Shown: positions 1 to 19,995, counted from the first letter of the stretch. The stretch: DNA of 64,000 nt from Tetramitus jugosus (GCA_937625935.1 OW569353.1:1-64000); one strand, 5' to 3'. Notes: generated by a model not told the origin, from the letters alone. Program-made: numbers and translations.

Positions 1-782
1 CCAAACCCAAACCCAAACCCAAACCCAAACCCAAACCCAAACCCAAACCCAAACCCAAACCCAAACCCAAACCCAAACCCAAACCCAAACCCAAACCCAA
101 ACCCAAACCCAAACCCAAACCCAAACCCAAACCCAAACCCAAACCCAAACCCAAACCCAAACCCAAACCCAAACCCAAACCCAAACCCAAACCCAAACCC
201 AAACCCAAACCCAAACCCAAACCCAAACCCAAACCCAAACCCAAACCCAAACCCAAACCCAAACCCAAACCCAAACCCAAACCCAAACCCAAACCCAAAC
301 CCAAACCCAAACCCAAACCCAAACCCAAACCCAAACCCAAACCCAAACCCAAACCCAAACCCAAACCCAAACCCAAACCCAAACCCAAACCCAAACCCAA
401 ACCCAAACCCAAACCCAAACCCAAACCCAAACCCAAACCCAAACCCAAACCCAAACCCAAACCCAAACCCAAACCCAAACCCAAACCCAAACCCAAACCC
501 AAACCCAAACCCAAACCCAAACCCAAACCCAAACCCAAACCCAAACCCAAACCCAAACCCAAACCCAAACCCAAACCCAAACCCAAACCCAAACCCAAAC
601 CCAAACCCAAACCCAAACCCAAACCCAAACCCAAACCCAAACCCAAACCCAAACCCAAACCCAAACCCAAACCCAAACCCAAACCCAAACCCAAACCCAA
701 ACCCAAACCCAAACCCAAACCCAAACCCAAACCCAAACCCAAACCCAAACCCAAACCCAAACCCAAACCCAAACCCAAACCC
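1..782 (+). repeat. Telomere, (CCCAAA)n, about 130 copies; G-strand TTTGGG
   Basis: Perfect hexamer array from base 1, C-rich strand 5' as expected at a left chromosome end. Confidence 0.98.
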
Positions 783-784
783 TA

Positions 785-1288
785 GTGTGCATTTAGGCGG
801 AACCAGCTGGTTCCACTGAAAATGTCATATTATAGGCGGAACCAGATAGTTCCACTGACAAAGTCAAGTTTTAGGCGGAACCAGCTGGTTCCTCTGTAAA
901 GTCGAAAATTTAGGCGGAACCAGATAGTTCCTCTGAAAAAAAGCTCTTTTAGGCGGAACCAGCTGGTTCCGCTTGTTTGTCCAAATTTTAGGCGGAACCA
1001 GATAGTTCCTCTGTAAAAAAGCTTTTCTAGGCCGAAATGCCTGGTTCCGCCTATTTTTTCGACACTCATCAGTCAATAGCTCATAGAGATTTGGGTTTTC
1101 TGAGTTCAAAACCCAACTCCATATCACAGTTTGGGTGATAGTTCAGAATCTATAGTGAGTTGTTTCATACAAAGCTTAAGTTGAACATTCCAGACCATAA
1201 AGAATACAAAAACAACGTTTACAAAGTACGGTTGACTGTATTAAGGCATTCTTGGTTTGCCGATATGTGACAACCCAAACCCAAACCC
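785..1288 (+). mobile_element. Telomere-associated module 1 (array + ~230-bp tail + telomeric seed), truncated by the telomere
   Basis: Near-identical to 2098-2599; ends TATGTGACAACCCAAACCCAAACCC. The duplication is seen; mobility is inferred. Confidence 0.6.
794..1053. repeat. 39-bp palindromic tandem array, copy 1 (7 units)
   Basis: TAGGCGGAACCAG(CTG/ATA)GTTCC starts at 794, 833, 872, 911, 950, 989 and (degenerate) 1028; exact 39-bp period; CAGCTG and CAGATA cores alternate. Confidence 0.97.
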
Positions 1289-1735
1289 TACCATGAGAAA
1301 GCTCCACCAGAAAAAGTTCAGTCACTGGAGAAAAGCTCCTCAGTAATTTCAGGTGGAGCCATGACAATTTTTACCTGAGAAAAACAGGTGGAGCCAAAAA
1401 GCTCCACCAGAGAAAAGCTGCCTAAGAGGAGAAAGCTCCACCAATAAAATTAGGCAGAGCCAAAAAGCTCCACCAGAAAAAAGCTCAGTCACAGAAGAAA
1501 AATTCCTCAGTCATTTTAGGTGGAGCTTTTTAGCTCCACTGGAAACCCAACTTGAAACCCAACTGGATACATGTAATTCGCAGTATAGTTCAACAACAAC
1601 AACATATTTTTTATTGATAAGCTTAGTTTGAGGGTTTCAGAGCATGACAAACACGATGTGTACTATTTCATACAACGACGGGTTTGGGTTATACAATATT
1701 GGCTTGCCTTTATGTCACAACCCAAACCCAAACCC
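1289..1735 (+). mobile_element. Telomere-associated module 2 (diverged family member)
   Basis: Tail homologous to module 1 (AAACCCAACT...ATAGTTCA; AAGCTTA.TTGA...TCAGA.CAT; TTGGYTTGCC..TATGTSACAACCCAAACCCAAACCC). Confidence 0.55.
1295..1541. repeat. ~66-bp palindromic array (GGTGGAGC-N6-GCTCCACC)
   Basis: AGGTGGAGC-type units at 1351, 1386, 1452 and 1518; GCTCCAC at 1301, 1401, 1435, 1467 and 1533. Confidence 0.85.
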
Positions 1736-2043
1736 TACCCACCCCACCCTTCTTGTATTTGTGTTTGTACTCCTTCATCCAAGTTGAACCTTCATCAAGG
1801 AGTGTAAGTTCCTTCATCATCCTTTGTTACAAAATATTTCATGTCGTGTCATTAGCCTTCTCCTTGTCCCACGTTTCTGTCCGTAGTCCATCGTCAATTT
1901 CACTGCCGTGAATGTATTCATTAGACTTGTATTCGCCCACAAAGTATTACAATCAAGTCATGAAGGAGTTCAATCTTGTCGTTCAACCGATCTATCACAC
2001 AGCATCTTCCTTCAGAAGTTAGAAACTCCCTGACCTCAGTCCC

Positions 2044-2599
2044 AAGTTCCTCTGTCGATATCCTCTTAGGCGGAACCATCTAGTTCCTCTTAGAGATGTG
2101 TGCATTTAGGCGGAACCAGCTGGTTCCACTGACAAAGTCATTATAGGCGGAACCAGATAGTTCCTCTGACAAAGTAAAGTGTTAGGCGGAACCAGCTGGT
2201 TCCTCTGTAAAGTTGAAAATTTAGGCGGAACCAGATAGTTCCTCTGAAAAAAAGCTTTTTTAGGCGGAACCAGCTGGTTCCGCTTGTGAGTCCAAATTTT
2301 AGGCGGAACCAGATAGTTCCTCTGTAAAAAAGCTTTTCTAGGCCGAAATGCCTGGTTCCGCCTATTTTTTCGACACTCATCAGTCAATAGCTCATAGAGA
2401 TTTGGGTTTTCTGAGTTCAAAACCCAACTCCATATCACAGTTTGGGGGATAGTTCAGAATCTATAGTGAGTTTTTCTATACAAAGATTAAGTTGAACATT
2501 TCAGACCATAACGAATACAAAAACAACTTTTACAACGTACGGTTGACTGTATTCAGCCAGTCTTGGTTTGCCGATATGTGACAACCCAAACCCAAACCC
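2044..2599 (+). mobile_element. Telomere-associated module 3 (longer copy of module 1)
   Basis: Direct duplicate of 785-1288 ending in the same telomeric seed; true 5' boundary uncertain. Confidence 0.6.
2066..2364. repeat. 39-bp palindromic tandem array, copy 2 (8 units)
   Basis: Units at 2066, 2107, 2144, 2183, 2222, 2261, 2300 and 2339; same unit order as copy 1 plus one extra unit at the 5' side. Confidence 0.97.
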
Positions 2600-3053
2600 A
2601 CCATCTTGTCCTGCGAAAGGCACTCAAAATGTGAAGTAGCAATCTGATTTTTACAGAGTCGCAACAACAACAGTTGCAACAGATGAAGCACACCCGATTG
2701 TTTTATCTGTCCTATGAATCTCAATCAGAGCCATTGCATCTCCGTTCAATTCGAACTCATGATCATAAGAATGGTTGTATCAATAAAAAAAATCACAAAT
2801 TACAGACCATTTGTTCGATTCATTGATTTGATTGATTCGTTTGTTTTTCATTGTTTTTATGCGATGTTTTTGTCAAACCCGGCTGGAACCCGGATTGCTT
2901 GTTCTGAAACTACATGTGTGTTTCACATTGTGGAAGATTCTTAAATTCTTCAAATGGAATGAAGAAAAAGATAGTAATCATCTGATACCGGAGTGCAGAA
3001 GAAGTGTGGTATAATAAGGGCTGTTGCTTACGTAACAACCCAAACCCAAACCC
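2600..3053 (+). mobile_element. Telomere-associated module 4 (no array)
   Basis: Ends AAGGGCTGTTGCTTACGTAACAACCCAAACCCAAACCC; AACCC doublet at 2876. Confidence 0.45.
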
Positions 3054-3789
3054 TCGCCATGACCATATGACCATTGCTGGCCCTCCTCATGACCCTTGCT
3101 AACTCTCGTCTTGACCTTATGACCATTGCTAAGACCTTCAAGTTAGCTCTACTATGTTCCTATGTTCATCCTTTTTGCATGGCGAGGGTACCTGGCCTCG
3201 TTCATTGTTCTTTGTCTCTAATTGCTTCAGCGATGACAGTAACACGTACGGAACAATGAAGGAGGACACTCTACATACGTTCCAAGTAATAATCTCTCTT
3301 CGTGTTGGATATCGCCTTGTTGACAACACTTTCTTTTCTTCGTGCGTCAAAAAAATGAAAAAGCGGCCTGTGTAATCGTGATTACACAAACAGTCATTTA
3401 TTCATCTGAATTTTTTTATGAAAAAAATTCGACAAAGTCCAAGATACGGCTCATTTGTAGGCCTTCATTGTCTTTTTGAATGTGTAGATCACTTTCCAAG
3501 TAGAACCACTGTCGACGCCCTATTGCAGGTCTGAGTATTGTGGGGGGATTACTGGCTTGACGAAAGGTCTGGCAGTTCGTTCCAGATAGTAATTTTCTTG
3601 ACTCAAAGAAGTCTGCTACCTTCACAAGACCCAAAATCTTTGTGATCCGATATTCTTCACACTTGGTGCGTTGTTACCTGCTGTAAAACTTTTAGCGCCT
3701 GCCTGTCAATTGTCAACTTTCAAAAAAAACTTTTTTTGAAAAAAAAACAACTCACATTTTGTTCCACACAAACATCTCCAACAAGGCTC

Positions 3790-5160
3790 ATGATTCCACT
3801 TGCTTCCCTTGGTGAAGATTGGGACAATATCCAAGATTTGAATATTAGATTTGTTGTGCAGAAAGTACTACTTCCTCATCAGTTGGTTAACTCAGAGGCA
3901 ATGAGAGGTTGTATAGGCATTAAGTCAGCTCACGATAATGCAAAATTGTTGAAAACCTTGTGTGATGATGATAATTCTGCATTACGACCAAAACTCAAGG
4001 AACTAATTTCTGAGTTGGGAGACAAAGTTAAGCAAGCTGAAGATGAAGTACATAACAATAACCAACAAAGTATTAACGAGCAAGCGGAACGCTCTAACTA
4101 TGAAAATTCGGACTACAACCTGGACAATTATAATAGTGATGGAGATGACAATAGAGAAGAAGAGCATGATGGAAATTATTCATTGTATAACTCAGATAGA
4201 TCATCTGATGATAGCAATATTGGTGGTGCAGATGGGTATTCGTGTGATGATAATGATCTTGATGGTCCCGACCAATATGATACGATGAACCCAGGCCAGG
4301 AGGAAGCGCATTTTGAGGAGATGGATGAAGTTTTACAAGAAAGAATGGAAGAATATTCTACTCATAACGACATTATAAATCTCGCTGAAGATTTGGAGGA
4401 ACTTCCTGTATATGCAATATACAATCGGGTAAATGCTATTGTTGAGAAACAAAAGAAATTCGATAAGGCAATGCAACTACAAAAGAGTAATGATCGTGAA
4501 GTTCTTCATTTTGTTGAGGATTCTGATTTACTCTGTAAGCTGTTGGATATGAACTTGGAACTAGAGACAGAGGAGAAAAGAAAAAAAACAGAGAAGAAAA
4601 GAAAAGAAACATTGAGGGCACTTTATCTATCAGCTACAGAGACTTGTACAGAACGGCTGACTCAGCAACCTGGTGCAAACATGGAAGATGTTCTATGCTC
4701 TTTACGACCTATTTACAGCCTTGTTGCTAACTTGTCTGTTGCATTTACTCTATACATTTATACTATTACAGAATGTGATAAAAAAACCTCCTTTTGGGAT
4801 GAAAAAATTGTTTACATTGGAATGACCACTGACATGTGGTTCAGACATAAAGGTGGTCATGTTGCTTCATCCAAGCTGCTCGACCCACAATATGCCAATT
4901 ATCATAAGAAGGTCTATTTATGTACCTGTTGTGTTGGTAATGTACCTGCAGAGTGGCTTAAATTCTCAGACGCAGAAGCGTTCGTTCTAATTGGTGAACA
5001 ATTCTTAATTAATTATTATCAACCAGAGTTGAATATTGAAGGTAAGAAGCAACCTGTTCTCAACAAGCGAGCCAAGGAGTTATACTCCAAAGTTTCAGCA
5101 GTTCATCTCAGCAGCGCTGATCGCATCAAAACTGTTGAACCTCCAGCCAGAGGTGCATAA
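3790..5160 (+). CDS. GIY-YIG endonuclease domain protein (acidic/coiled-coil N-terminus, C-terminal nuclease)
   Basis: LYIY...VYIGMTTDMWFRHKGGH...EQFLINYYQPELN gives the YIG, Arg, His, Glu and Asn motifs of GIY-YIG; intact intronless ORF; first ATG at 3790. Confidence 0.8.
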   Translation: MIPLASLGEDWDNIQDLNIRFVVQKVLLPHQLVNSEAMRGCIGIKSAHDNAKLLKTLCDDDNSALRPKLKELISELGDKVKQAEDEVHNNNQQSINEQAERSNYENSDYNLDNYNSDGDDNREEEHDGNYSLYNSDRSSDDSNIGGADGYSCDDNDLDGPDQYDTMNPGQEEAHFEEMDEVLQERMEEYSTHNDIINLAEDLEELPVYAIYNRVNAIVEKQKKFDKAMQLQKSNDREVLHFVEDSDLLCKLLDMNLELETEEKRKKTEKKRKETLRALYLSATETCTERLTQQPGANMEDVLCSLRPIYSLVANLSVAFTLYIYTITECDKKTSFWDEKIVYIGMTTDMWFRHKGGHVASSKLLDPQYANYHKKVYLCTCCVGNVPAEWLKFSDAEAFVLIGEQFLINYYQPELNIEGKKQPVLNKRAKELYSKVSAVHLSSADRIKTVEPPARGA

Positions 5161-5503
5161 TTCCTGAGTCCATTGGTACTTCGGAAAGAGATTCTTAGTA
5201 TAGTTGGTGTTGAGAGTTTTGTGGTGTGGTTTTTTCTGCTCCTCTGAACCCTGACAAGTTCACCTGAGTCGTATAAAAGAGTTCTCTCGGTCGAGGTTTT
5301 TCTTTGTCGCGAATTGCTGCTTCAGAGGATGGATCATTGAATAAATATTGTTAACCGTATGATAGATTGCACTTCATTGACTTTTTACTGTTGGTGATAG
5401 CAACGGAACAATGTACAGACCAAGTACAGTCGCACTGTTTCTGTCGTAATTTTGTGTTTTAGGGGCTGTTTTAAAAGGTGCGACTCACACAACTGTGTCT
5501 CAT

Positions 5504-6271
5504 TCATTTGATCTGGACGTATGCCTTTACCGTCTTTTTGAACGTGTCGAGATCGTAGATCGCTTTCCAAGCATAACCACTCCTGAGCAGTCGGCGCCCT
5601 ACTTCGAGTTGTTCGGGAGTAGGTTTGTTTGGATGTATTTTGAACTCGATGAATAGAGCACCAAACCGTTTGTTCTTCTTCAGAATGACGTAATCAGGGT
5701 AGCCTTTGAGTCTACCATTGCGCCTAGCCTTTTCTGTGCATGCCGCAATACCAATTCCAGCAATGTCAGCATTAACCACAATTCCAGGATAGGCTTTGCA
5801 CATGTGCGCATGAGCGTCGGACTGAAGCTGGTCCTCTTTGCCCATTTTCTTGGGATTGATACCTTTTATCTTCTTCTTTACTGGTTTCGACCCGTACATA
5901 AGTATGTGATTCAAGTCTTTCTCTTTCAGTTCAGACACAACCCTCTTTCTACTAACTGAAAAAGGGGACACAGCATCCTTGCGCATCCGGGTCATTTTCG
6001 CAGGCTTCTGTATGCCATTTTTCGGTTCCCTCTTCTTTGGATCCGGCTTCTTGGTTTCTCTGGTTTTGACTTTCGCGGTAATCTTGGATACCACTTCAGA
6101 CGATTTCCTAACTGCTTTCCTGGATGGAGACTGTGTTTCATTGACTTCTGTCACCATCTTGCGTTTTACCTCTATGATCTTCTCTGGCTTCTTGATACCA
6201 TTCTTAGGTGGTGTTTTGGCCGGTTTGGCTTTTGGTGTGGGCTTCTTCTCTGTTTTGACCGTTGTAATCAT
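5504..6271 (-). CDS. VRR-NUC family PD-(D/E)XK nuclease with Lys-rich N-terminus
   Basis: KEDQLQ...KGYPDYVIL...LFIEFK..NKPTPEQ...L...GY is the stand-alone VRR-NUC pattern. Confidence 0.85.
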   Translation of the reverse strand: MITTVKTEKKPTPKAKPAKTPPKNGIKKPEKIIEVKRKMVTEVNETQSPSRKAVRKSSEVVSKITAKVKTRETKKPDPKKREPKNGIQKPAKMTRMRKDAVSPFSVSRKRVVSELKEKDLNHILMYGSKPVKKKIKGINPKKMGKEDQLQSDAHAHMCKAYPGIVVNADIAGIGIAACTEKARRNGRLKGYPDYVILKKNKRFGALFIEFKIHPNKPTPEQLEVGRRLLRSGYAWKAIYDLDTFKKTVKAYVQIK

Positions 6272-6336
6272 GTTGTGTTTCTATTCCAGCTTCGAAGTGA
6301 ATATGTTGATTAGTAAGTGTTGTGTAACATTTGTGT

Positions 6337-6678
6337 TTATTCTCTGATTATGTGGTTGAGACATTCAGCATACTGGCGAATCTGTATGCATGACCGATCT
6401 AGTTCGGGTCTGAATGATATCAAGCCGTAGCGTGTCCGCTCTCCAGTTGTCTTAATTTCGAAGATACAGACCCATTTCAAAAATATCGCATTGGACTTGA
6501 GTGCCAACGCATACACTTTAACGTGTTGCGTCTCATGGACATGCTGGAGGACTTCAGCCTTCTCTGGTTCACCAGGTACTTTGGATGCGAAGAAGATGTT
6601 TCCATTGGGGTACATAGCCATACGGACTGATGTCTGTGCGAATGCATCAAGGTCCCATTTCCTGTTGCTCTGGTTCAT
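6337..6678 (-). CDS. Hypothetical protein (ORFan)
   Basis: ATG overlaps an upstream stop (ATGA, 6675-6678); co-oriented with neighbours; no recognised motif. Confidence 0.45.
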   Translation of the reverse strand: MNQSNRKWDLDAFAQTSVRMAMYPNGNIFFASKVPGEPEKAEVLQHVHETQHVKVYALALKSNAIFLKWVCIFEIKTTGERTRYGLISFRPELDRSCIQIRQYAECLNHIIRE

Positions 6679-8798
6679 TTGGGTGGTTTTGTTTCTGGGC
6701 TCTGTGAACAGAATTCTTGTTTAAATAATTCCCGGACGTCGGGCTTGAGCATGTTCAGTGTAGATTATCTAGGATGCGCTTGGGCTCATACACAACAGCT
6801 TCTGTTGCATGTGTTAGTTCGTGCGCAATCTGAAACCCTAACAGAGCAAATTGGCTGGTTCTGTCGTACAGCGTGCTGAACATGGGTGTGCGTAGGATGC
6901 CGGGTGGAATGGTGACTGAGTGACTTTCTGGTTGGTACCACGCATTGGTGCTGGTTGACTCATCGTATGTAATGTCAGTAGAAACAGTTCGGCCGTTTAA
7001 CATCAATCCACCATCAGAGTCTAGCCACGACGGCCGGAAACGCATGTACACTCTGTCAGTGATTGCTGTTACAATGTTGAGTCCAAAATTAACGGATGAT
7101 ACATCCATGTTGTTCTCTGCCTCAAGTAACAGTTGGGGACCGTTTTCACCGTATGTATCTGTTGTCAACTTGCCAAGAGAACACTCGCCGACCGACACAC
7201 GAAGGCTGTCGAGTTGGGTCAAGAGTTTGTCACGAGTATGTTTGTTTGTTGAGCACCATAGATCGATTTTCACCTTTGTCATTGATGAGAGATTTTCGCG
7301 TACCTCCCAGAAGAATCATATCTCTGTACGTGTGACGAATCTCGTTGGCGATGTATGTTGCTTGTTTCTGACGTTCTGATGATTCAGCATCCATCTCTAC
7401 GAACGCATTGCAGTATGACAGAGGAAAAGTGTGTTGTACGGTGCGAGCACACATATCAACTAACGATCCAGGTTCTTGTGCAATTCGGGCGGTTGCCTGT
7501 TGTACGAGCTGTGCACTCTGGATGAAAATAGAGTCTGACGTTGTGTGTTTATCTATCACGAGTGGAGAGACACCTCCGTGAGACATCACACTACTGCTTA
7601 TATCTGGTACAGCACGCAAAACATGTTCGTACATACACACCATGAGGTACGACTTCCACGTACTCACTTCCATGTGTGCGAGGGCTCGGTCCAAATTGAG
7701 CATATGTTGATTGGAAGCCACGAAAACATTATCAATGTTCGTGGATGTCAACTTTGGGCGGACTCCTGCCTCTGGAAACATCAAGCTTTCTGGAGCAGAG
7801 AGTTGGTTTCTTCCATTTCCGTCCACATAGTTCACCTTGTCAAGACTGTGCAGAAAATGGCGCACTTCATAGGCGTCACAGAGCATGTTAATGATGTCGA
7901 CCATGTGGTTTTGATTTTCAATGCCTATATGGAAGGCATATGATGCAATAAAGGTGGATATATCGCTGTGAGATGGTCTTCCAGGTCTAATGACCAGAGT
8001 GGTGTCAGACGTCTCGTTCCTGTACTCAAAAGAGTGCATCTCTACTCCTATGCCTCTGTACGCCATGTGAAACAATGTGTCAACAACACCCTGTTTATCC
8101 TTCACCAAATTGATCATTCTCTCTATTCCTGTCACAAAGTCGAGCAGAGGTTTCCAACGAATGACTTCTGCGAGATGTAGCCGCCACTTTTTGTGAAATT
8201 GGGACGCACTGCGTAGTGTTGTGATTTGTGTGCCTGGTGATGCTGATAGAGCTTTGTAGTGCGTCACACATGACGTGAGCAGCTTGTGCATGTTATTGTG
8301 AGTATTGTACTTGGCGGTATTTTCTGCGATTGGCTTAGAGCTACTGAACTTGGTGATACGACCGCTCTCCAGAAACGAGTGGAGGCGCGAGATATCATGT
8401 GCATTCTCGCTCATTGTTGTCACTATGAAGCGATTGAATGGTTGCTTCCATCCGCTGCACGCATGCTCGTAAAAGCTGCTGCAAGGATTGATTTTCTTGT
8501 CCAAGAGGGTTTCACTGGCTGTGCTTGGGTAGAAGAACCGATGAGTGCTCTCCGGGTGGTTGTCGTCTTGTTCTTGTTCGACTTCCCTGATCAGCCCATC
8601 AATTAGAGGCATGCGTTGTGTGGTTAGCTTGTTCCATTTCACAGTTTGAGAAGCACGTGGGAGATCTTTGTGTCGTAGTACAAGATCCCAGACAAAGAAT
8701 AGGACTGATAGAAGCAAAAAAGTCCCACCAGACGCAAGCAGAGCGAACGCCACGATGGTACTTGTTCTTGCACAAGCATAAAAACGCACAGAGACCAT
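6675..8798 (-). pseudogene. M13 (neprilysin/ECE) zinc metallopeptidase, frameshifted
   Basis: N-terminal TM anchor; INPCSSFYEHACSGW; NAWYQPESHSVTIPPGILRTPMF; IAHELTH. Split over ORFs 7230-8798 and 6755-7282; downstream ENxAD motif not seen. Confidence 0.85.
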
Positions 8799-9079
8799 GA
8801 TTCTCGGTTAGTAACTATCTAGTTGTGTTTCCTATTTACAAAGTGGTTCTTGAATGTTAAACGCAACGCAATATGGATTCCCTATTTAACGTCGTCCTCT
8901 GGTTCCCCGGTGTTTCCGTAAAAGTTGTCATAGTTGATGTCCGTGTTCTTGCGTCGTCTTGGTGACTCTTCCTCCGGAGCAGAAAATACCATATTTGTTA
9001 TAATAGAGATCCTGTAGTTCCAGATTATTAGGACCTCGTCATATTACTCCTAGTTTGTTGATATTCAACAACAAACAAA

Positions 9080-10960
9080 ATGATAGGTCGCTTGTTCAAG
9101 TACACAGGAGATATGCTGCTCGTGCGCCGCAATCCTCTTAAATTCCCTGAGGTGACGGTGGTTGGAACGTCTTCTTTGACGATCTGCGCTTTGTCTTCGA
9201 TCTTATGGATATGCTTCCGCTGCATGAGTTGTATCAACTCAAGCAGATCTCTCGTTGGTTCAACCGCTGTGTGTTCATTTATCTACACTCTGAGCGCATG
9301 AATCGTCGCAGAGCACTGCACGAACACATCGGGGCAATTGACGTAATGCTGATGCCTGGGCGTGATAAACATACCTCAGTTGGAGCTGATGCATTCGTAC
9401 TCAGAGCCCTCATTGGAACTCAGACAACCCATTTAACACTTGAAGAAGGATGTTGCAGTAGTCAGGTTCAGAGAGATTTGTGTGTACCACGTGATATGTG
9501 TGTCTTTGTGAATGGGAAGCAGAATTCGTGCATTACAGATTCTGACTTGTTCCCTGATGTCAGCCAAACATACAAGTATTTTGTTCTCATGAAGGCCGGT
9601 GGTTGGAGAGAACGCTCTCGAAAATCAAAAACACGTTACTTTTACTCTGGTGACCAGATGGTGAACACGGAGACCAAACGATTCGTGGTGCTTGCTGATG
9701 AGAGAGCACGTATTGCCAATCTCATCACACTCAACAGAGGCACTCACAAGACCACTGGCCTGTGTTACGTGGGCATTTTTGGCCAGATTATTGAACCACC
9801 GAACGTCAGGGACGGTACCGTCCTTGTGGCACAGGATCAAAATACGCCACTGATGTTCCTCATCCGGACACACGGTACCGTCAAAAAACTGAGCCTGGAA
9901 AAGTGTGTTGCTGACTTGTCTGTTCGATCCTTCATCGGCTATCGTATGCGTGAAGTGAGAGGGTCTTCGCTTGAGACCATCCAACTCACTCAATTTGGAC
10001 ACGGACTTCGTGAACTTGATCTCTCCAACACAACTCTCAATAACACTGACCGTTCCATTCACATCTGGAGGAAGTATGCCTGTCCGGTGTGAATGGAATC
10101 GACGATATGCATGTGCGCATGATATTTAAGATGCTGGTTCTTCTGGAGAAGCTCGATGTTAGCCGCTGCTCTGGCGTTACAGCAAAATTGTTCCTCCGGC
10201 GGAGGATGAACACCTACGAACTTGTACAGGATCCATTGGCAAGCTCAGATACAGTTAGATCCGTTTTTGAATGCAACTACAGACGAGCTCTGGCTTACCA
10301 AAGTCCATGGGCCAAGGGAGAGTGTTCAGATGCCACGAATCTGCGTCGCTTCTTTGCTAACAAATCTCTCTCATCTGGGTGGCTAGAAGGTAGAGGATTC
10401 TTCCAGAAGTTAGTTTGGGTTCCCCTCATCTCACCAGCCTATACCTTTCCGGATCTCTGTGTAGATCGCTGTTTCCAATTCTGAATTCATGCAACAAACT
10501 GAACATTGTACACTTGGACAATCCAACTTACTCGTGGGTTTTGAACAATGCACATGTGAAGACAGTATGTATGTATGCTCCACACCTCGAGGTGTTGAAC
10601 CTGGCTGGTTGTACTGGATTGAATTTGAGTGCTGTGTACTACATTTCCCAATACGCGAAACATCTGAGACATCTAGATCTGAGCAACAATCCAAACATGA
10701 CATCGTCAGTCATTTCCATTCTGATGACTGGAGAAGAACACAGGCCATACAAACTCAAAGAGATGTGTGCAAGAGCGAACGCTATCGCTCATATATCTGA
10801 CAACCAAACAGAAGAAAAAGGTGCCATCCCGGAGAATCCACTGCTCAGACTAAGACACCTCAATCTGATTCTCTTGACAGGATGTTCTGAAGTCAACAAG
10901 AACGAACTCGGTATTGTTGCCAGTTTCGACATGTACAAGCACATCTCGGTTGTGGTTTAA
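9080..10960 (+). pseudogene. F-box / cysteine-containing LRR protein, several frameshifts
   Basis: F-box-like DLMDMLPLHELYQLKQISRWF; LRRs LRELDLSN, LEKLDVSRCSGVT, LEVLNLAGCTGL and LRHLDLSNN lie in three successive frames. Confidence 0.75.
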
Positions 10961-10961
10961 T

Positions 10962-11213
10962 TTATTTGGATGGTGTAAAACAGAACACAATGAAGATGAT
11001 TAACATGGTGCAGATCGAGCTCGTATAGAAACACCAGATGTGACGCTCCCCTAAGTACGCAACGGTTAGCTCTCTGAGACCGGCGTACGAGTCATGTTGC
11101 ATGCTTGAGACAGTAATGTCCATCTGCTCGTGTAACTTGTAGTCGGATTCTTCTGGATGTTGCATTTTGTGGGTTTGTTGTGGTACTTGAACAATAATGC
11201 CTGTTTCGCTCAA
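10962..11213 (-). CDS. Small hypothetical protein with C-terminal TM helix
   Basis: Fills the gap between neighbours; hydrophobic C-terminus; start codon uncertain. Confidence 0.4.
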   Translation of the reverse strand: MSETGIIVQVPQQTHKMQHPEESDYKLHEQMDITVSSMQHDSYAGLRELTVAYLGERHIWCFYTSSICTMLIIFIVFCFTPSK

Positions 11214-11262
11214 TAAAGATCACTCTCTAACGCTCTACGTTTGAACGAGAAACACAAGCAAC

Positions 11263-11889
11263 ATGACAGAAGAAGCCCGTAGCTTATATGATGCATATTG
11301 CCTCCGACTTTCACGAGATCCTGTATGTGTCGGTCGTCTAGTCAGTCTTTGGTTCCAATACCCTTTATTCGTGACATGCGAACCGTGTGTAACGAGACCG
11401 GAGCTTACAAGGGAGATGTCCAAGTTTCGGCTTTGTGGCACGGACGTGCTCTCTATATCTGACGGTAGAAGTGATATATTTGCACACTTCCTCGAATACG
11501 TGCTGTTCGGAACAGTCGACCTGAGTGTAGACAGTGACGGAGTATATCTTGACGAAGATCGAGTTCTCTTTGTTCCTATCACTGAGATGCAGCTGTATGA
11601 TTCGCCAGAGAGCAATGACTTAAGTGAAGTAATAGCAATCTACAAGCAGTGGATTGAGCGAAATTCGGAGTTCTTCGAAAACCGAGCTCACGTCATTTAC
11701 CAGTGTTCGTATCGAGAGTACAAGGGAAACAGGTGCGTCAATGGCAGACCGCGAATGTTACCCGTGGAGTTAGTGTGGGCTGTGTGTGTCTCTTTCCTTG
11801 TGTTCATTCAACGAGAAGTGCGCATAGCGTGGGGATTCTACTGGTTACAATCATCTAACCTATCGTTGTTCCAGAGAAAAAGAGTTTAG
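11263..11889 (+). CDS. Hypothetical protein (ORFan)
   Basis: 208-aa ATG ORF, globular composition, no recognised family. Confidence 0.55.
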   Translation: MTEEARSLYDAYCLRLSRDPVCVGRLVSLWFQYPLFVTCEPCVTRPELTREMSKFRLCGTDVLSISDGRSDIFAHFLEYVLFGTVDLSVDSDGVYLDEDRVLFVPITEMQLYDSPESNDLSEVIAIYKQWIERNSEFFENRAHVIYQCSYREYKGNRCVNGRPRMLPVELVWAVCVSFLVFIQREVRIAWGFYWLQSSNLSLFQRKRV

Positions 11890-11891
11890 TG

Positions 11892-12287
11892 ATGCACATT
11901 GTGGACAAGGTGATGGAAGAGAAGAGGATGATGCAGGTGAATGCGTTGTCCTCTGACGAGTACCGGGACTTACAAATTCTTCAGGACGAATGTATCACTG
12001 AAGTGTACAACGGAATCGTTTCCTCGCTGACCACGGCGTTCATGCGCCGCTCTTCTGTTCGGGACTTGGATCCCAACTACGCCACAAGATTGGCGATCAT
12101 GCGCACGGTGACGTGTAAACTAGAAGACTTGGCTATGGAACACACGAACTCGATTTCGCTGACAAAACCTCAGGCAAATCACGTGTCTCAAGAGTGGACA
12201 AGGGTACAAAGAACAGTAATGCAGCAAAAAGACAGGGCTATCTCCTTTATGGATGATAAGTACGGCATCTTCAGCCGGTTTTGGTGA
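11892..12287 (+). CDS. Hypothetical helical protein (ORFan)
   Basis: ATG 2 bp after the previous stop (TAG TG ATG). Confidence 0.55.
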   Translation: MHIVDKVMEEKRMMQVNALSSDEYRDLQILQDECITEVYNGIVSSLTTAFMRRSSVRDLDPNYATRLAIMRTVTCKLEDLAMEHTNSISLTKPQANHVSQEWTRVQRTVMQQKDRAISFMDDKYGIFSRFW

Positions 12288-12388
12288 TTTAAACTGAAGC
12301 CATTCTCAAAAGTTCCGCTGTCATTTCATTAAGATCGTCCAAGAACTTGCACATGGTACGATTGTTATTCAAATCTTTACTGGTGGGC

Positions 12389-12802
12389 TCACCAGTAAGG
12401 GCAATAAGTGACACATCGTTCTTTTACGCCGTGTTGAGTAATCCATACCAATCGACACTCAAGTTCTCTTTCCTTCATGGTCTGTATTTCGACGAGAGAA
12501 GAGAATGAATCATCAATGTAGTACAGACCTTCGAGGTATTGAATCACCAACAGGATTGAGACCTGGTGTTGAAGATTGGCAAGCAAGTTTTGGGTGAAGA
12601 ATTGACTCCTGAGTTTGAAAACAAAAGTGGCACTCTGCTTGGTGAGCAAATCTTGATACAAATTCCTTGATTTTCTGAAATTCTCCTGTTGAGAACTCAC
12701 CCGAGGCCCAACAGAACTTGAGATGTAAAATATTCCCTTGCAACAATTGCGCCAAAAATTCCATTTTTCAGATTTTCCTGAGTTTGTTCCTGTCAGCAAC
12801 AA
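12389..12802 (-). pseudogene. Probable degraded ORF of unknown family
   Basis: Overlapping ORF fragments in two frames filling the gap in the compact cluster. Confidence 0.3.
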
Positions 12803-12835
12803 AAGTTCTAAAAAAACAACATAAAAGATCTCAGG

Positions 12836-13518
12836 ATGTCCATTCTTTCCAAAAAATGGTTTTGGTACCCTTTGGCCATAATCTTACTTGCAGTAATTTT
12901 CAAAGAGCAGTTGGAAACATGCATGCGGGTATGCCCCCAGAACAACTACGAGTACCAAGCAACAGCCACAAAGGAACAAGAAAGAGAAGTGTTTGTCAAA
13001 TCTCAACAGCTGCAAGAAGAAACAGAGGAAGAACGAACTCATCGAGAGTACAAAGATATTGCCCGCCAATTGCGAAAGAAGAGGCGAGAGAGGCAGCGGT
13101 CCGAAGAAGCTCGGATTTTACCCAGAAGGACAATGTTTGCCTGTGTGGGCGACATCGTGCGAAGTGTCACGCATTTGCTGCCTTGCTGTCAGACAACCGC
13201 TTGTCAAGGCAAGACGTGACACTGAACTTATCGAGCGCTCAGCTGTGATTCACTCACAACGAAACCAGCAAACAAGTCAACGCTTTGCGTGATTTGGAAA
13301 CAAAGAACCGTCAAATCAGAATATTCTTCACCCATAAAGTAAAGTGTTTTAACAATGAACTGGCCAGACGTCTACGTGCCGAATGCACCCAAAAACATTT
13401 CCAACAACCCATGTTTGATTTCGAGTACCACAAGAAGATGACGGGGATCGCGAGCCCAGTCCAAAGTTTTGAATCGCCAACAGAGATTGATTCCCTGGTT
13501 TGGGGAGTGAAGGATTGA
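12836..13518 (+). pseudogene. Membrane-anchored coiled-coil protein, frameshifted
   Basis: N-terminal TM WFWYPLAIILLAVIF, charged helix, continuation in ORFs 12993-13292 and 13285-13518. Confidence 0.45.
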
Positions 13519-14699
13519 TTCCAAGCTCTGAAGCACAAGATAGTGATTTCAAGGTGTTGAAAATAAGAAAGTTGGCGAAGCCTGGCGCTTGGAGAAAGAG
13601 CTGAAAACGCCAAGCCAGGCTTTGCAATTTTCAGAGTTGGTGATCGAGTGACAATCGAGTGTCAAAGATTGTGCTTTGCAACCAACAAGGCGTCACACCA
13701 AGGATGGATTGTGCTTTGCAATCTCGGGTCTACAACAACGAGCAGGATTGATTTTGCAATCAAGGATGGATTTAACAATGGTTTCGAGGCGAAGCCAAGC
13801 ACTTGGGACAGAAACGAGGGACACTCTGATGATCAACCACTCGAAGGTACAACCACCGGTTTGTCACAAGACAATCGCAATCCTGTCAGGTTTCGAAGCA
13901 CTGAACAATTCAACCCTGTAAGGTTTTGTGATCACGTGAGGTTTGGATCATCAACAAGGTTTGGATCATTTATTTAGGAGGTGTTGTTCTGATAAAGAAA
14001 TCAATTGTTATTGAACTTCCTATCAAAGAGGTTGGTGTAACCCGCAGGTGTAAGGATCGGTAGATACCTGATAGACAGGCTGCGGAACTGTTGTAGATTT
14101 ATTTGGCGGAGAAATCTCGGCCACACAACGATTTTTTTGCGATACAAACAAAACATGAAGATTAAAGCAGTATCGTCACCAACCGCCGCCTCCTCAGGTC
14201 CTTACTAGTAATGATATTGTTCTCCATTTGTCCTATGTGTTGGTTGAAGAAACAATAATAGATGTATACACAAGTTTTTATTCGTTTGTTTTGTGGCTTT
14301 GTTTGTTGGGCTTTGTTGATGAGTGTGTGAAAGCACCTTCTTATACCACACGTTCATGTTTCTCTCATTTGACCTCATTTTGTTCACACGCTCACTTTTC
14401 TCATATCTGACCACTTTTTGGCCACACGTTTCTCTTATGTAACTTTTCAAGTTTTCCCTACAATTTTTCATACGAACTGTGTGAATAGGGTGTGTGATAT
14501 AGAAGATTCATGACAAAAACTCACATACCGCATTCACTTGCTTTCGATGATAGAGTGGCAGTGTCACAGTCATCACAAGATTAAGGGTTGGATTCTGATA
14601 TAACAAGCAGAAAGAAAGTGAGTGTCAATCAACAACATTTCGATGAATAAAGACATATCCAATGATTTTTGTTTGTTGTTCCTTTTAGTTTTGTTGAAG

Positions 14700-14885
14700 C
14701 GGGTGGATTGACAACCCTGCTAAAACCCGGTTAGGAGCTGAACTGACAAATCATGAACAATGGACCAAATGAATGCTTAAACCGAGATCTAGATGAAAAA
14801 CAACAAAGTATCCCCATCGAGAGATTGAGTTATTGTTTGCTCCATAGTCAAAAGGGCCATGGCTTACGTGATAACCCAAACCCCA
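14700..14885 (+). repeat. Fifth copy of the module terminus with telomeric seed
   Basis: 14852-14883 matches 3016-3047 at 27/32 ungapped positions; AACCCTGCTAAAACCCGG (14713) matches AACCCGGCTGGAACCCGG (2876) at near-identical spacing from the seed. Confidence 0.75.
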
Positions 14886-15016
14886 CCCGCGAGGGTGATG
14901 GCTTCCATTCTTTGGTTTGGGTTTAAGAGTGCAGTGCTCATGTGCTTTTCGCTCTCCTTATCCTTATTTTTTTTATTTGAGGTAGCCAACAGCCAAGCTG
15001 GCCACAAGCGTAAAAC

Positions 15017-15739
15017 TCAATTCAGAGTTGGCCAAACGTATGAAAATTTTATTGAGGCAAGAGTTGTTCTCTCTTCCTGGCGATTCATTGGCTTGCGATG
15101 ACCATGGAATGACCAAACCATCAAGAGGAGCGACAACCCTAACCAAGTAAGTGAACATGGGATGGCAGCAAAGCGAATTAGCTTGAGTATCAAAGGCAGA
15201 GTATTCGTGACTGGCAGACCAAACACTGACATAAATGCAAACACAAAAATCACCAGTCATCCAGAGCAGTACCAACAATCAGCCACAAGAAGAAGATGAT
15301 CATTCGAACCACAGAGTTGCTCAAGCCAGCAGATGAAGGAAACCATATGCAGTAGACTACCCAGAATGGTTTCTCAACAACAAACACAAGCAGAGATGCG
15401 AAGGCAGTAGCCATCAAAGACCTCGACACCGCTTCACTTGCTGTTTTTACAGCATTTGATAAGAATTGTAGGTTTAACGTCGGCGGAGTCGATGATTTTT
15501 GCAGAGTAGTCATCAAATCCAGCACTCTTCTGTTGAGAAGAAGAAGATGTAGATGACTTCAAATTGACACTGGCGCGATTCGGGTTCACATCCTCTGTAA
15601 AATCAAAGAATGAAGTCGCATTGGACGATGTTCTTGCTCTAGTGACTTCAATCTTTGCTGGATTGTGAATCAATTTCTGAATGGGTTGTGGCTCTGGCAA
15701 ATCAGAATCAAAGTTCAGGGTTGTTCTGGATGATGGCAA
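15017..15739 (-). pseudogene. Possible degraded multi-pass membrane protein
   Basis: Chain of short hydrophobic ORFs in different frames. Confidence 0.3.
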
Positions 15740-16193
15740 TGTTCAAGTACGTTGCAAAAAGTGTCCATCCCAGATAGGGCACCATCAGCTTAACTGAATT
15801 CACCGAATTCTTTGCGAACGAGAACATGGTCAAGATTATGAAGGAATTAAGAGCGAGAACTACAGCCAGGGCCTTCTTCGGGTTCTTTTGCTTGAAGAAC
15901 ACAGCTGACCAATAGAAGTTCAGGAAAAGTTGTGAAATGAAGAAAATCGTACCTGATGCAATGTTCTTCTTTGCCTTTTTCATCTGGCGGATCCACATGG
16001 CCAATGCTACACCCATCAACGAGTAAAGAATTGTCCATACAACCGGAAAAATCCAGCCAGGCGGGAACCATTTGTTCTTCTTGAGGACTTGAAACCATTC
16101 CTGTGATTCCTCTCTGGAGATGTAGAGCAAGGAGTACGCTGTGGATAACAACAACGGAGCTGCAGCTATGGCAATTTGATGTAGAGCGATCAT
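15708..16193 (-). CDS. tspO: TspO/MBR translocator protein
   Basis: WFQVLKKNKWFPPGWIFPVVWTILYSLMGVA, QLFLNFYWSAVFF and LMVPYLGWTLFATYLN are TspO motifs; likely start MIALHQ. Confidence 0.95.
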   Translation of the reverse strand: MIALHQIAIAAAPLLLSTAYSLLYISREESQEWFQVLKKNKWFPPGWIFPVVWTILYSLMGVALAMWIRQMKKAKKNIASGTIFFISQLFLNFYWSAVFFKQKNPKKALAVVLALNSFIILTMFSFAKNSVNSVKLMVPYLGWTLFATYLNIAIIQNNPEL

Positions 16194-16329
16194 GTTTGTT
16201 CTTTGCATCCGATTGATCGGAGATCTGGGACTAAATGATGATGCCTCCACCCGCAGCTGTTTTTAGAATTTTGTTGTAGACTGAGGAGAATTAACATGAC
16301 ATATGAGAATGAACAAACTGTGGATGAGA

Positions 16330-16801
16330 AAAAATGTTTCTCAAATAACAAGGCTCTGAGAGTCGGATCGCCCATCGTCATACTAAACACTTGCGCACAA
16401 TTCTCAGAGCAGTAGCAGATGGCATAAACTTCTCCACCCATGGATCGAATATCCTTCAAACAATCATTGACCTGTCTCAGATACAATGGACAATTGCCAC
16501 ACCAAGTTCCACGATAGAAGAAGAGAACAGTGAATTTGGAGAGAGGAGCAATGGTTTGCACCCATTTATCCCTCTTCTTCTTTCGTGCGAGTTTCAGTTT
16601 TTCATCCTTCTGCTTGCACCTCGTGCACTCACCATCTACAGTGGTAGAGTACTCTGGATGACCACAGTCAACATTCTTAATCAACTTGCAAGCATCCAAA
16701 GTTCCGAACAATATCGGTACAGCACTTCCCATGTCGTTGTTTATCACCTGTTGAATCTTGTCATGTTTCAATTGAAGTTCGACAATCTTGTTTCTCAACA
16801 T
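16330..16801 (-). pseudogene. Peroxiredoxin-like (AhpC/TSA, PRXL2-type) domain, C-terminally truncated
   Basis: TVLFFYRGTWCGNCPLYL...IRSMGGEVYAI; similarity lost afterwards. Confidence 0.65.
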
Positions 16802-17036
16802 GTCAACTGCTTCACTTTCAGTGGTACCTGCATCAAGAATGAGCCGATTAAGTTGGTTCTGGGCTTGAATGATCTCATCCTCAGTTTTAGTAGCTTTACA
16901 ACATTGTAGTACGAGGTGATAACTGGTTGTTCATGGTTATTTGGGGCATGTGTTTTGGTTTGTGTTGTGTGGCTATGCCAGTGTCATCTAACTTCAAAAC
17001 GCCCGTTATGTGATTTACGGGTAAATACAGGCCACA

Positions 17037-18124
17037 TGGAGCAGGCGAATCGAAGCAGCTCATCTTTTGCACCACTGATCATGTTTCATGACGCGAGTCA
17101 ACCACTCATCCAATTGCTGGGCAATGACTGGCAACAGTTGTCACAAAACTTGGATACCATTCGAAAGCTGACCATCACACCGGACGAGCAAGTGGCACTC
17201 AATAGTCAGCTGACCCAACTGGATCAAGTCAAGTCAGGGCAGCTCTTGGATTGTGAGCAAAAGAGTCAAAGCAGCTTGGCATCAGAAACGACCATTGCTC
17301 AATTGACAGACACTGTGCAGCAACTGTCTGAATCGACACGACAGCGGTCTGAGGCTGGACAACAATTGCACCAGGTTCGCCAACACTGAAAATTCAACTC
17401 TTGCTTTGCGCATCGAAGAGTTGGAGAGTCAGCTGTCCAAGTCAATGCCGAAGCTCAGCAAGTCAGGCTTGATGCAAGTCAACACTCGAGGCAACAACAA
17501 GAAACGATCGTGGTGCTTCAAGCCAGAATCGGTATCGCTGAACAGCAGTTGAGTCATAGCCAAGAAGCGCTTGCACAGGCACAGCGAGAAGCAGACCAAT
17601 GGAGGCTGCAATTGAATGAGGTCAAAAGCGAATTGACACAAGAGCGATCCAAGCAGGAGCGACATCAGACAGATCAGGAGCTCACCAGGCAATCGATGGA
17701 AGCATCCCTGAGCAACCAATGGACTGAGCACCAGAAAGAATTGTCTCAGTTGAGAGAACAGCAACAGCTTGACTTGGAGGCACTGCGCCAAGAGTTGACG
17801 GTTGTGCATCAACAACAAATCTCGAGTGAGTATAGTGCCACGAGGCAATGTCAATCCTTGTTGGAGCAAGCACAGGCAGACAAACAGTTGATGGAGCAAC
17901 GACTGAGCAGTGAACAAGCCAAGTTACTTGATGCCACCGATCTCATCACCCAACTCAAAAATAACATCTTGACTGGGACACAAGACACGGCAAGCCTCCA
18001 AATTCGACTCCAACTGGTAAGTAAACTTCACTTCAAGCAAGAGCAAACAACAAGTTTGGAGTATCAGCTTTCCTTGTTGAAACAGAGTGAGAAAAGGCCA
18101 GGGCAGAGAACACTCGCTCATTGA
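17037..18124 (+). pseudogene. Gln/Leu-rich coiled-coil protein, frameshifted
   Basis: Two consecutive heptad-rich ORFs (16916-17389 and 17510-18124) in different frames. Confidence 0.5.
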
Positions 18125-19869: not shown

Positions 19870-19995
19870 GTTGTTGTTGCCAGCTAAATGTGAAAAAGCT
19901 TGATCTGTGATTTGAATACGACCACTGATATTGAGTGAGTGAATACCAGTCAAGTGTCGAAATGCATTGTCTGTGATCTGAGTGCAACTCATATC
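19870..19995 (-). pseudogene. LRR fragment
   Basis: CTQITDNAFRHLTGIHSLNISGRIQITDQAFSHLAG, about 1.5 repeats, no complete gene. Confidence 0.65.

What the first reader, a model, noticed from the sequence alone, without database searches (positions are those of the whole stretch)
3054..14885. An 11.8-kb cargo block bracketed by direct copies of the module terminus
Seen: AAGGGCTGTTGCTTACGTAACAACCCAAACCC (3016) and AAGGGCCATGGCTTACGTGATAACCCAAACCC (14852) match at 27/32 without gaps. A second shared motif AACCC-x6-AACCCGG lies 161 and 160 bp upstream of the respective seeds. Between them are the GIY-YIG gene and the whole virus-like cluster. Inference: the block arrived as one unit, either a giant terminal element carrying cargo or a DNA that integrated through telomere-like ends. 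Position 14885 may be a former chromosome end.
Basis: partly seen in the sequence, partly recalled or inferred. Interest (0 to 1): 0.8.

Follow-up and report, generated by a model that had tools for sequence, protein, structure and literature searches.

The report
Stacked telomere-tailed modules trap foreign DNA
At a chromosome end of a protist (likely a heterolobosean amoeba), the two matching ends that flank an 11.8-kb block of decayed, possibly viral genes are two distantly related members of a family of short telomere-tailed modules that were likely attached to broken chromosome ends one after another, so the block is likely captured DNA lying between two old chromosome ends rather than one inserted element.

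Summary
The 27/32 match is real and extends about 450 bp (56% identical; 0 of 500 shuffles reach it). The window is a chromosome end with five modules of 450-530 bp, all facing the same way, each ending in a 16-17-nt telomere-complementary tail. Contigs of public runs show three other copies of the right-hand module that end at 14883-14885 with unrelated flanks, so this is a true element end and a likely former chromosome end. The two ends are not a bracket: they are far less alike than copies of the right-hand module are to each other, other copies share only 14350-14883, and another strain joins the left module to 14801, a non-homologous position. The DNA between them is a mosaic: a GIY-YIG-like nuclease gene, a compact GC-richer cluster with a broken M13 peptidase and a VRR-NUC-like gene (viral origin not shown), and a spliced segment. 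The fixed tail length favours templated attachment to broken ends, as in Terminons or MoTeR2, but no reverse transcriptase or hammerhead was found. New variant of a known kind; mechanism open.

The parts
1..782 (+). Telomere, (CCCAAA)n, C-rich strand on +
   Evidence: 130.3 perfect copies; TTTGGG is the candidate telomeric repeat reported for the heterolobosean Naegleria gruberi (PMC3622300, passage)
783..1288 (+). Module M1: 39-bp palindromic array, ~250 bp unique, 17-nt tail; capped by the telomere
   Evidence: 481 of 504 columns identical to 2098-2599; tail 17 nt
1289..1735 (+). Module M2: diverged relative of M1 with hairpin repeats; 17-nt tail
   Evidence: 1500-1718 v 1051-1271 scores 128, shuffle maximum 96, 0 of 500; tail
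1736..2599 (+). Module M3 (about 2050-2599) preceded by a 310-360-bp unique spacer; 17-nt tail
2600..3053 (+).
   Evidence: homologous to M5 at 263 of 471 columns; joined to 14801 in run X5
3051..3188 (.). 138-bp segment with a perfect 11-bp terminal inverted repeat and 22-bp tandem repeats (MITE-like); its left CCC overlaps the end of the M4 tail
   Evidence: 3 of 43,600 host positions have such a repeat within 200 bp; the unique X1 contig starts at 3187 and X5 holds pieces at 3094 and 3172
3790..5160 (+). Intact 456-aa ORF with a C-terminal GIY-YIG-like nuclease domain
   Evidence: 58 relatives; Y22, Y42, G44, R52, E103, N115 of the domain conserved; 13 of 54 members weakly match Pfam GIY_YIG_2; model pLDDT 82; best folds are GIY-YIG enzymes at Z 4.2-4.6
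5504..6271 (-). VRR-NUC-like (Holliday-junction-resolvase-like) nuclease ORF with a lysine-rich N-terminus
   Evidence: PHROGs phrog_824 E 4e-16, phrog_5702 and phrog_93 E 1e-7; one relative, 64% identical; the label VRR-NUC is from recalled motif knowledge, Pfam gave no match
6702..8798 (-). Broken M13 metallopeptidase gene (frameshift near 7270; about 126 residues of the relative missing at 6764)
   Evidence: Pfam Peptidase_M13; relative P0001, 809 aa, 59-65% identical
9080..12287 (+). Frameshifted LRR-containing gene (F-box-like by eye only) and two orphan ORFs (11263-11889, 11892-12287)
   Evidence: weak Pfam LRR hits below cut-off for 10571-10957; no relatives in viral contigs for the two proteins tried
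12300..14349 (+). Segment of short or decayed ORFs; covered by a 1491-nt contig of run X4 and spliced into M5
   Evidence: X4 contig 12772-14263 and joint 14263 to 14452 with GT..AG ends
14350..14883 (+).
   Evidence: other copies align from 14350-14358 and end at 14883-14885; tandem repeat
14884..14885 (.). Junction of M5 with older subtelomeric host DNA; likely former chromosome end
   Evidence: three loose ends with unrelated flanks; bridged in X5; an M1-type terminus is joined about 80 bp further in, before 14969, in X1

Best explanation
The two matching ends are separate members of a multi-copy family of roughly 0.5-kb modules that end in a 16-17-nt telomere-complementary tail and were likely attached to broken chromosome ends one after another, and the 11.3 kb between them is likely captured DNA rather than part of one mobile unit. 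Shown: five same-facing modules; a shared terminal motif; a near-constant tail; other copies of M5 ending at 14883-14885 on unrelated flanks; different module types attached at 14885, 14801 and about 14965 in different haplotypes. Inferred order at this end: M5 was attached at 14885; M5 was eroded or broken at about 14350 and foreign DNA was joined to it; a later break at about 3053 was capped by M4, then M3, M2, M1 and a new telomere. Inferred mechanism: a module copy with a free C-rich 3' end (most likely RNA copied by a reverse transcriptase supplied in trans) pairs through its last CCC with GG(G) at the 3' end of a broken G-strand and templates extension, as non-autonomous partners of Athena/Terminon or MoTeR elements do.
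For: Tail length: all 4 internal tails in the window are exactly 17 nt; the 5 junctions displayed plus M5 give 16-17 nt with at most one or two changed letters; none of these 10 is longer, except that M2's tail is followed by short degenerate C runs. Tracts that are leftovers of telomeres vary widely: 20 to ~500 bp for yeast Y' (PMC13177704, passages), half a unit to over 20 units for MoTeR (10.1101/845669, passages), 'vary widely' for Paramecium Helitrons (PMC13085455, section 18 part 1). Attachment to non-telomeric ends: M4-type end joined to 14801, inside M5, in X5; M1-type end joined before 14969 in X1; C-run microhomology at 3051-3053. Independence of cargo and ends: other M5 copies align only from 14350-14358; M4 and M5 are 56% alike. 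The window's own junctions are real: X1 contigs 3187-5184, 5200-13644 and 13618-14758 carry 0 differences and X5 bridges 14885. The block's contigs in X1 have depth 22-26 against 35-42 for long contigs right of 14969, which fits one haplotype of two, though the tool warns that depth is no copy number. Cargo is a mosaic: GC 0.379 (GIY gene), 0.456 (5161-12300), host 0.409; CpG o/e 0.85 v 0.63. MoTeR relics show the same outcome, a truncated element with a short telomere tract internalised next to captured DNA.
Against: No reverse transcriptase in 783-20100 (motif screen; Pfam) and the genome is not held, so the copying enzyme is unseen. No hammerhead on the C-rich strand. The X5 joint has only 29 letters on its short side, at 85% likeness, in a metagenome, a case the tool flags as often spurious; it is supported only by the branch of X5 contigs at 14801-14829. 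X8 contigs have depth 2-4. X1 may be the sample the window came from, so it is not independent. Three of four internal junctions are followed by a CCAT-like word, which hints at defined left ends and so at whole-element insertion. A plus-strand spliced RNA runs from the cargo into M5, so a cargo-plus-M5 transcript could exist. Loose-end tables were cut (219 and 4 rows not shown), so the tail tally covers displayed rows only.
Confidence: 0.6

Rival explanations
1. Same stacked anatomy, but spread by DNA recombination only, like yeast Y': telomerase adds a few repeats to a break, these invade a tail at another chromosome end, and break-induced replication copies the modules outward. No element-specific enzyme is needed.
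For: No RT or other mobility gene found; M1 and M3 are 95% identical neighbours; BIR through interstitial tracts is documented for Y' and MoTeR arrays.
Against: Tails are 16-17 nt at all 10 displayed junctions, whereas Y' tracts range from 20 to ~500 bp and are absent at half of the elements; a terminal motif kept between otherwise unalignable module groups (M1 v M4 and M1 v M5 not above shuffles) suggests recognition by a protein.
Confidence: 0.17
2. One reading: 3054-14883 moved as one unit, either as a Terminon-like read-through RNA or as a telomere-targeted Helitron-like element with its left end at 3054 and right end at 14872; M4 is simply the next element.
For: Terminons carry GIY-YIG and coiled-coil/transmembrane ORFs and captured genes (PMC6431247, passages); Paramecium Helitrons have the same polarity, satellites and short C-rich repeats after the right end; an 11-bp inverted repeat sits at 3051-3188; spliced RNA crosses from cargo into M5.
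Against: The interior lies on unbranched X1 contigs at one low depth, and other M5 copies part from it at about 14350; genes face both ways and are decayed; composition shifts inside the block; no RT, Rep/helicase or hammerhead.
Confidence: 0.15
3. A viral DNA with direct terminal repeats bearing telomere-like tracts integrated by recombination with the telomere (the herpesvirus HHV-6 pattern, recalled, not looked up).
For: Direct orientation of M4 and M5 with telomeric tails; compact intronless cluster of foreign composition.
Against: Terminal repeats should be identical on integration, but M4 and M5 are 56% alike; both occur without the cargo in other contexts; no capsid, polymerase or packaging gene; the X5 joint is at non-homologous positions.
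Confidence: 0.05
4. Assembly artefact: the block was misjoined to a chromosome end.
For: No single contig spans the whole stretch, and X1 shows no contig over 14884-14968.
Against: X1 contigs cover the block with 0 differences and bridge the cargo-M5 junction; X5 bridges 14885.
Confidence: 0.03

Closest known systems
Athena/Coprina endonuclease-deficient Penelope-like elements and Terminons (PMC6431247, PMC8557442; passages read)
   Same: Head-to-tail, left-truncated units at chromosome ends; a short reverse-complement telomeric tail on the centromere side; GIY-YIG and coiled-coil/transmembrane ORFs and captured genes nearby.
   Different: No RT and no hammerhead before the tail here; modules are about 0.5 kb; the GIY-YIG domain lacks the two cysteines between GIY and YIG described for PLE endonucleases (one Cys only) and its relatives are 230-250-aa stand-alone proteins.
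MoTeR1/MoTeR2 and MoTeR relics of Magnaporthe (10.1101/845669; passages read)
   Same: Non-autonomous partner with shared termini; truncated copies internalised with about 1.5 telomere units at the 3' end and captured DNA at the truncation boundary; same polarity.
   Different: MoTeR junction tracts vary from half a unit to over 20; an autonomous RT/endonuclease partner is known, none is seen here; modules here attach to non-telomeric DNA.
Telomere-targeted Helitrons of Paramecium (PMC13085455; section 14 and part 1 of section 18 read)
   Same: Right end towards the centre followed by short C-rich repeats, internal satellites, ORF-less derivatives, a terminal stem-loop.
   Different: There the flanking repeats vary widely and are not part of the element, the right end is CCAA and the stem-loop is on the top strand; here tails are constant and the hairpin folds better on the G-rich strand in 4 of 4 lineages.
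Yeast Y' elements (PMC13177704; passages read)
   Same: Subtelomeric tandem units with telomeric tracts on the centromere side, variable among ends and strains.
   Different: Y' are 5-7 kb, encode a helicase, and have tracts of 20 to ~500 bp or none.
Subtelomeric giant-virus insertions of Acanthamoeba (PMC12210455; passages read)
   Same: Strain- and allele-specific, degraded, chimeric gene clusters near canonical and degenerate telomeric repeats, without mobility genes.
   Different: Viral origin of this cluster is not shown (no hallmark gene, no named viral relative); here the borders are telomere-tailed modules.

Membership tests
Athena/Coprina/Terminon (EN-deficient Penelope-like) | Short reverse-complement telomeric tail at the 3' end, facing the centromere | tested here: met
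   16-17-nt tails at 10 of 10 displayed junctions
Athena/Coprina/Terminon (EN-deficient Penelope-like) | Head-to-tail arrays of 5'-truncated copies capped by telomere | tested here: met
   five same-facing modules; M1 lacks the leftmost ~40 bp of M3's array and is capped at 783
Athena/Coprina/Terminon (EN-deficient Penelope-like) | Hammerhead ribozyme just upstream of the tail on the C-rich strand | tested here: not met
   no CTGAnGA core on + in 783-3053 or 14330-14890; no relaxed hammerhead in 1-20000; Rfam none at E up to 5
Athena/Coprina/Terminon (EN-deficient Penelope-like) | PLE-type reverse transcriptase in the element or a partner | tested here: inconclusive
   none in 783-20100; whole genome not held
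MoTeR-type site-specific telomeric non-LTR elements | Autonomous partner with RT and restriction-like endonuclease sharing the termini | not testable with these tools
   genome not held
MoTeR-type site-specific telomeric non-LTR elements | Insertion inside telomere tracts, leaving junction tracts of variable length | tested here: not met
   constant tails; attachment at 14801 and before 14969, outside telomere tracts
Paramecium-type telomeric Helitrons | Right terminal sequence towards the centre followed by C-rich repeats; satellites inside | tested here: met
Paramecium-type telomeric Helitrons | Stem-loop on the top strand before a CCAA/CTRR end | tested here: inconclusive
   top-strand hairpin beats shuffles only for M4; ends read ..CAA or ..TAA before the first CCC
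Paramecium-type telomeric Helitrons | Rep/helicase transposase | tested here: inconclusive
   no HUH or Walker A motif in 783-20100; genome not held
LTR-like or direct-repeat-bounded insertion | Near-identical terminal repeats | tested here: not met
   263 of 471 columns identical
LTR-like or direct-repeat-bounded insertion | Empty or excised allele joined at homologous positions, or a target-site duplication | tested here: not met
   X5 joins 3049 to 14801; 3049 aligns to 14885 and 14801 to about 2967
Endogenous giant-virus fragment (cargo 5.2-12.3 kb) | Viral hallmark genes or closest relatives in viruses | tested here: inconclusive
   no hallmark gene; closest relatives are unnamed metagenome proteins; none in IMG/VR apart from one 34% match over 58 residues; one weak hit in prokaryote genomes
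Endogenous giant-virus fragment (cargo 5.2-12.3 kb) | Compact, intronless, compositionally foreign, decaying gene cluster | tested here: met
   about 81% covered by my five gene spans; GC 0.456, GC3 0.48-0.64 v host 0.36-0.47 for 12 host ORFs beyond 20 kb; broken M13 gene
GIY-YIG nuclease superfamily (ORF 3790-5160) | Conserved Tyr, Tyr-x-Gly, Arg, Glu, Asn and the GIY-YIG fold | tested here: met
   residues conserved in at least 90% of 54 sequences (motif roles recalled); top three folds T4 EndoII Z 4.6 (rmsd 3.3, 80 aligned), I-TevI Z 4.6 (3.7, 77), UvrC Z 4.2 (3.2, 70), only modestly above RuBisCO small subunit Z 4.0; Foldseek PDB none at E 0.001; viral library best hits GIY-YIG at E 0.01

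The most novel reading that the evidence does not exclude
The modules are a ribozyme-less, protein-less class of chromosome-healing RNAs: each ends in a fixed 17-nt telomere-complementary tail beside a small hairpin and is copied onto any broken end by telomerase itself (or an unknown TERT-like enzyme) using the module as an alternative template, so that each break-and-heal cycle traps whatever foreign DNA, including viral DNA, was ligated to the open end.
Probability: 0.12. Interest if true: 0.85.

Novelty: new variant of a known kind. Interest (0 to 1): 0.5.

Why it matters
Telomere-attaching elements are known in rotifers, fungi, diatoms and ciliates; my searches (listings only) found no description in Heterolobosea. 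Here the tails mark successive chromosome ends, so the order in which foreign DNA was captured and sealed in can be read from the sequence. That gives a concrete, testable route for the subtelomeric, allele-specific virus-like insertions reported in amoebae, for which no mobility mechanism is known (PMC12210455). A constant tail without hammerhead or RT also makes the question of which enzyme heals these ends directly testable in the full assembly.

Tried and rejected
Collection scan for the terminal motif in metagenome contigs: 33 hits, none similar to the window by blastn or tblastn, all taken as chance. Ungapped conservation of the last 180 bp across all modules: 12 four-way invariant columns against a null maximum of 12 (3 of 5000), but shifting M4/M5 as a block gave 14 at another offset, so a shared fixed-spacing scaffold between M1/M2 and M4/M5 is not established. 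A 2.07-kb duplication flanking the GIY gene: only 3457-3510 v 5519-5581 matches (E 0.002; tblastn E 0.049); the longer alignment scored 224 against a real-background maximum of 235. Homology of the 1740-2050 spacer to 13.8 kb: score 34, background maximum 35, dropped. A minus-strand CTGATGA..GAAA word in M1/M3 lacks stems I and III by inspection; rejected as a hammerhead. Parts without cover, which the tool says are no evidence: X5 has no contig on 5505-12464 or 13045-14204; X4 has depth 0-4 on 5.5-12.4 kb against hundreds on the GIY gene and 12.8-14.7 kb, and its contigs stop at 14662, 210 bp short of the tail; so 'the cluster is silent' and 'RNA does not reach the tail' are not claimed. X9 and the other small-share runs say nothing about habitat. 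Word search of 5.8 billion proteins with the whole GIY ORF: 0 of 3384 candidates. Exact look-up: 0 of 9 window proteins. Single-sequence fold of the GIY domain failed (pLDDT 33). The protein Atlas gave no answer. The primary Athena and Terminon papers were not held; their features are taken from a review and a later paper. A four-term search for M13 peptidase plus VRR-NUC in giant viruses returned 0 papers; that such genes occur in giant viruses is recalled only. No supplements were read.
Full report
Setting. The window starts with 130 copies of CCCAAA followed, beyond about 20 kb, by long, intron-poor eukaryotic genes. TTTGGG is the candidate telomeric repeat of Naegleria gruberi (PMC3622300, passage), so the host is probably a heterolobosean; this is an inference, no genome is held and none of nine window proteins is on record exactly.

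The observation. The 27/32 match and the motif 161/160 bp upstream are as described. The similarity extends over about 450 bp: with the telomeric part removed it scores 189 against a maximum of 160 in 500 shuffles and in 970 real host windows, at 263 of 471 identical columns. Outside the telomere the perfect 11-mer AACCCAAACCC occurs only at five plus-strand tails (1272, 1719, 2583, 3037, 14873) and once inverted (1680). These tails end five modules: M1 783-1288, M2 1289-1735, M3 about 2050-2599, M4 2600-3053 and M5 about 14350-14883. M1 and M3 are 95% identical, M2 is a diverged relative, M4 and M5 form a second group, and the two groups share only the last 20 or so bases and the tail.

The right end is a real breakpoint. 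Contigs of five public runs were laid on the region (X1, X4, X5, X9; X1, X4, X5, X8; 5 of the 17 runs listed). One contig of X1 and two of X8 match M5 to 14883 or 14885 and continue, after completing the tail, into 177-255 letters unlike the window. Summed X1 depth over 14805-14879 is 150-197 against 22-26 on the block, so M5's end has several copies, though depth is no exact copy number. In X1 another contig carries an M1-type terminus joined to host DNA before 14969. In X5 a contig runs unbroken through 14885 (14801-15427), so this junction is shared; left of it X5 has two paths, one following M5 to 14358 and then leaving the window's sequence, the other joining 3049 (the M4 tail) to 14801. 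That last joint has a 29-letter short side in a metagenome and is weak alone.

The ends are not a bracket. Terminal repeats of one inserted unit should be near-identical; M4 and M5 are 56% alike while other M5 ends differ by 2-4 letters over 56-81 bp. An excision between them would join homologous positions; 3049 aligns to 14885, not 14801. Other M5 copies align only from 14350-14358, and the interior lies on three unbranched X1 contigs with 0 differences, one of which (13618-14758) bridges the cargo-M5 junction. So the shared unit is about 0.5 kb, and 3054-14349 is DNA peculiar to this end. Its depth (22-26) against 35-42 on long contigs right of 14969, with the alternative junction at 14969, fits one haplotype of two; X1 may be the window's source and is not independent.

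The tails. The four internal tails are each exactly 17 nt. M5's is 16, and the five junctions displayed from other contigs are 16-17 with at most one or two changed letters. None of these 10 is longer; M2's is followed by short degenerate C runs. Telomere leftovers vary widely in Y', MoTeR and Paramecium Helitrons. A constant tail, joined to non-telomeric DNA at C runs (3051-3053 is also the start of an 11-bp inverted repeat), points to a donor with a free end at the last CCC. A small hairpin that includes the first tail repeat folds on the G-rich strand in all four lineages (RNA parameters: 6.0%, 2.0%, 0 of 300 and 4.3% of shuffles as stable; on the C-rich strand only M4 passes; the 27-nt window was chosen after looking). 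Against a Penelope-type identity: no hammerhead and no RT in 783-20100.

The cargo is a mosaic. (i) 3054-5200: a MITE-like 138-bp piece, a decayed copy of the end of the neighbouring nuclease gene, and an intact ORF whose C-terminal domain belongs to an uncharacterised GIY-YIG-like family (58 relatives; 53 of them aligned; 13 of 54 weakly match Pfam GIY_YIG_2; modest fold matches). (ii) 5200-12300: a compact cluster, GC 0.456 and CpG o/e 0.85 against 0.409 and 0.63 for the host, with a VRR-NUC-like ORF, an M13 peptidase gene broken by a frameshift and a 126-residue loss, a frameshifted LRR gene and two orphans. The sole relatives of the first two (64% and 59%) include proteins that each lie on a JGI contig of 18,938 bp, probably the same contig, so the genes are likely neighbours elsewhere too. 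Viral origin is plausible but not shown. (iii) 12300-14349: short ORFs without family. Run X4 behaves as RNA (uneven cover, an adapter remnant, joints with GT..AG and CT..AC ends; inferred) and shows a plus-strand splice from 14263 into M5 and a minus-strand 71-nt intron inside M5, so M5's left part is transcribed on both strands.

Mechanism. Shown: polarity, shared terminus, constant tail, multiple attachment points, mosaic cargo. Inferred: M5 attached at 14885; later loss of its left part and joining of foreign DNA at about 14350; a later break at 3053 capped by M4 and then M3, M2, M1 and telomere. MoTeR relics give a documented case of truncated terminal elements internalised next to captured DNA. 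I put this reading at 0.6, with RNA-templated attachment by an enzyme in trans as the likeliest copying step; recombination alone 0.17; one giant element 0.15; viral integration through terminal repeats 0.05; artefact 0.03.

Comparison. It works like the non-autonomous ends of Terminons or MoTeR2, but fails or leaves open defining features of each family and is not filed under any. Earlier notes of this scan on other genomes describe a similar stack with a nuclease gene in a diatom and a priming-site hairpin in a mushroom; these are unchecked leads. Papers: PMC3622300, PMC6431247, PMC8557442, PMC12210455, PMC13177704 and 10.1101/845669 were seen as passages; PMC13085455 as passages, section 14 and part 1 of section 18; all others as listings only.

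Noticed in passing
window 3051-3188: MITE-like 138-bp piece with a perfect 11-bp terminal inverted repeat and 22-bp tandem repeats; the last 7 letters of its right repeat also occur at 14889, just after the M5 tail.
   Followed up: partly
window 14873-14925 and 1680-1735: Each is an imperfect palindrome with telomere-like arms (a C-rich tail and an inverted G-rich tract 30-40 bp apart).
   Followed up: no
window 14264-14451 (+) and 14458-14528 (-): Overlapping introns on opposite strands in run X4 contigs: the left part of M5 is spliced in both directions; neither spliced form gives an ORF over about 85 codons.
   Followed up: partly
window 12470-12620 and 13620-13650: X1 contigs at about twice the block's depth join 12493 to 13627 and 13647 to 12596: short pieces with rearranged relatives elsewhere in the genome.
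   Followed up: no
window 1740-2050 (-): Spacer between M2 and M3 reads like a frameshifted protein-coding fragment; no relative in the window.
   Followed up: partly
window 14884-20100: Older subtelomeric zone of patchy multi-copy and broken genes (TspO 15708-16208, AhpC-like 16190-16801, coiled-coil and LRR fragments); X5 and X9 show an inversion joint 19439/19777.
   Followed up: no
window 3790-5160 and proteins P0004-P0061: Uncharacterised GIY-YIG-like family with an invariant GH motif after the catalytic Arg; matches phrog_16890; 4 of 54 members weakly match PADLOC PDC-S14. P0006 and P0036 share an N-terminal PHxLV word with the window protein.
   Followed up: partly
window 1254-1271, 1701-1718, 3019-3036, 14855-14872: The terminal motif contains a near-palindromic TKAYGTVA core resembling bZIP binding sites (recalled), 200 bp upstream of where minus-strand RNA contigs begin; it could be a promoter element.
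   Followed up: no
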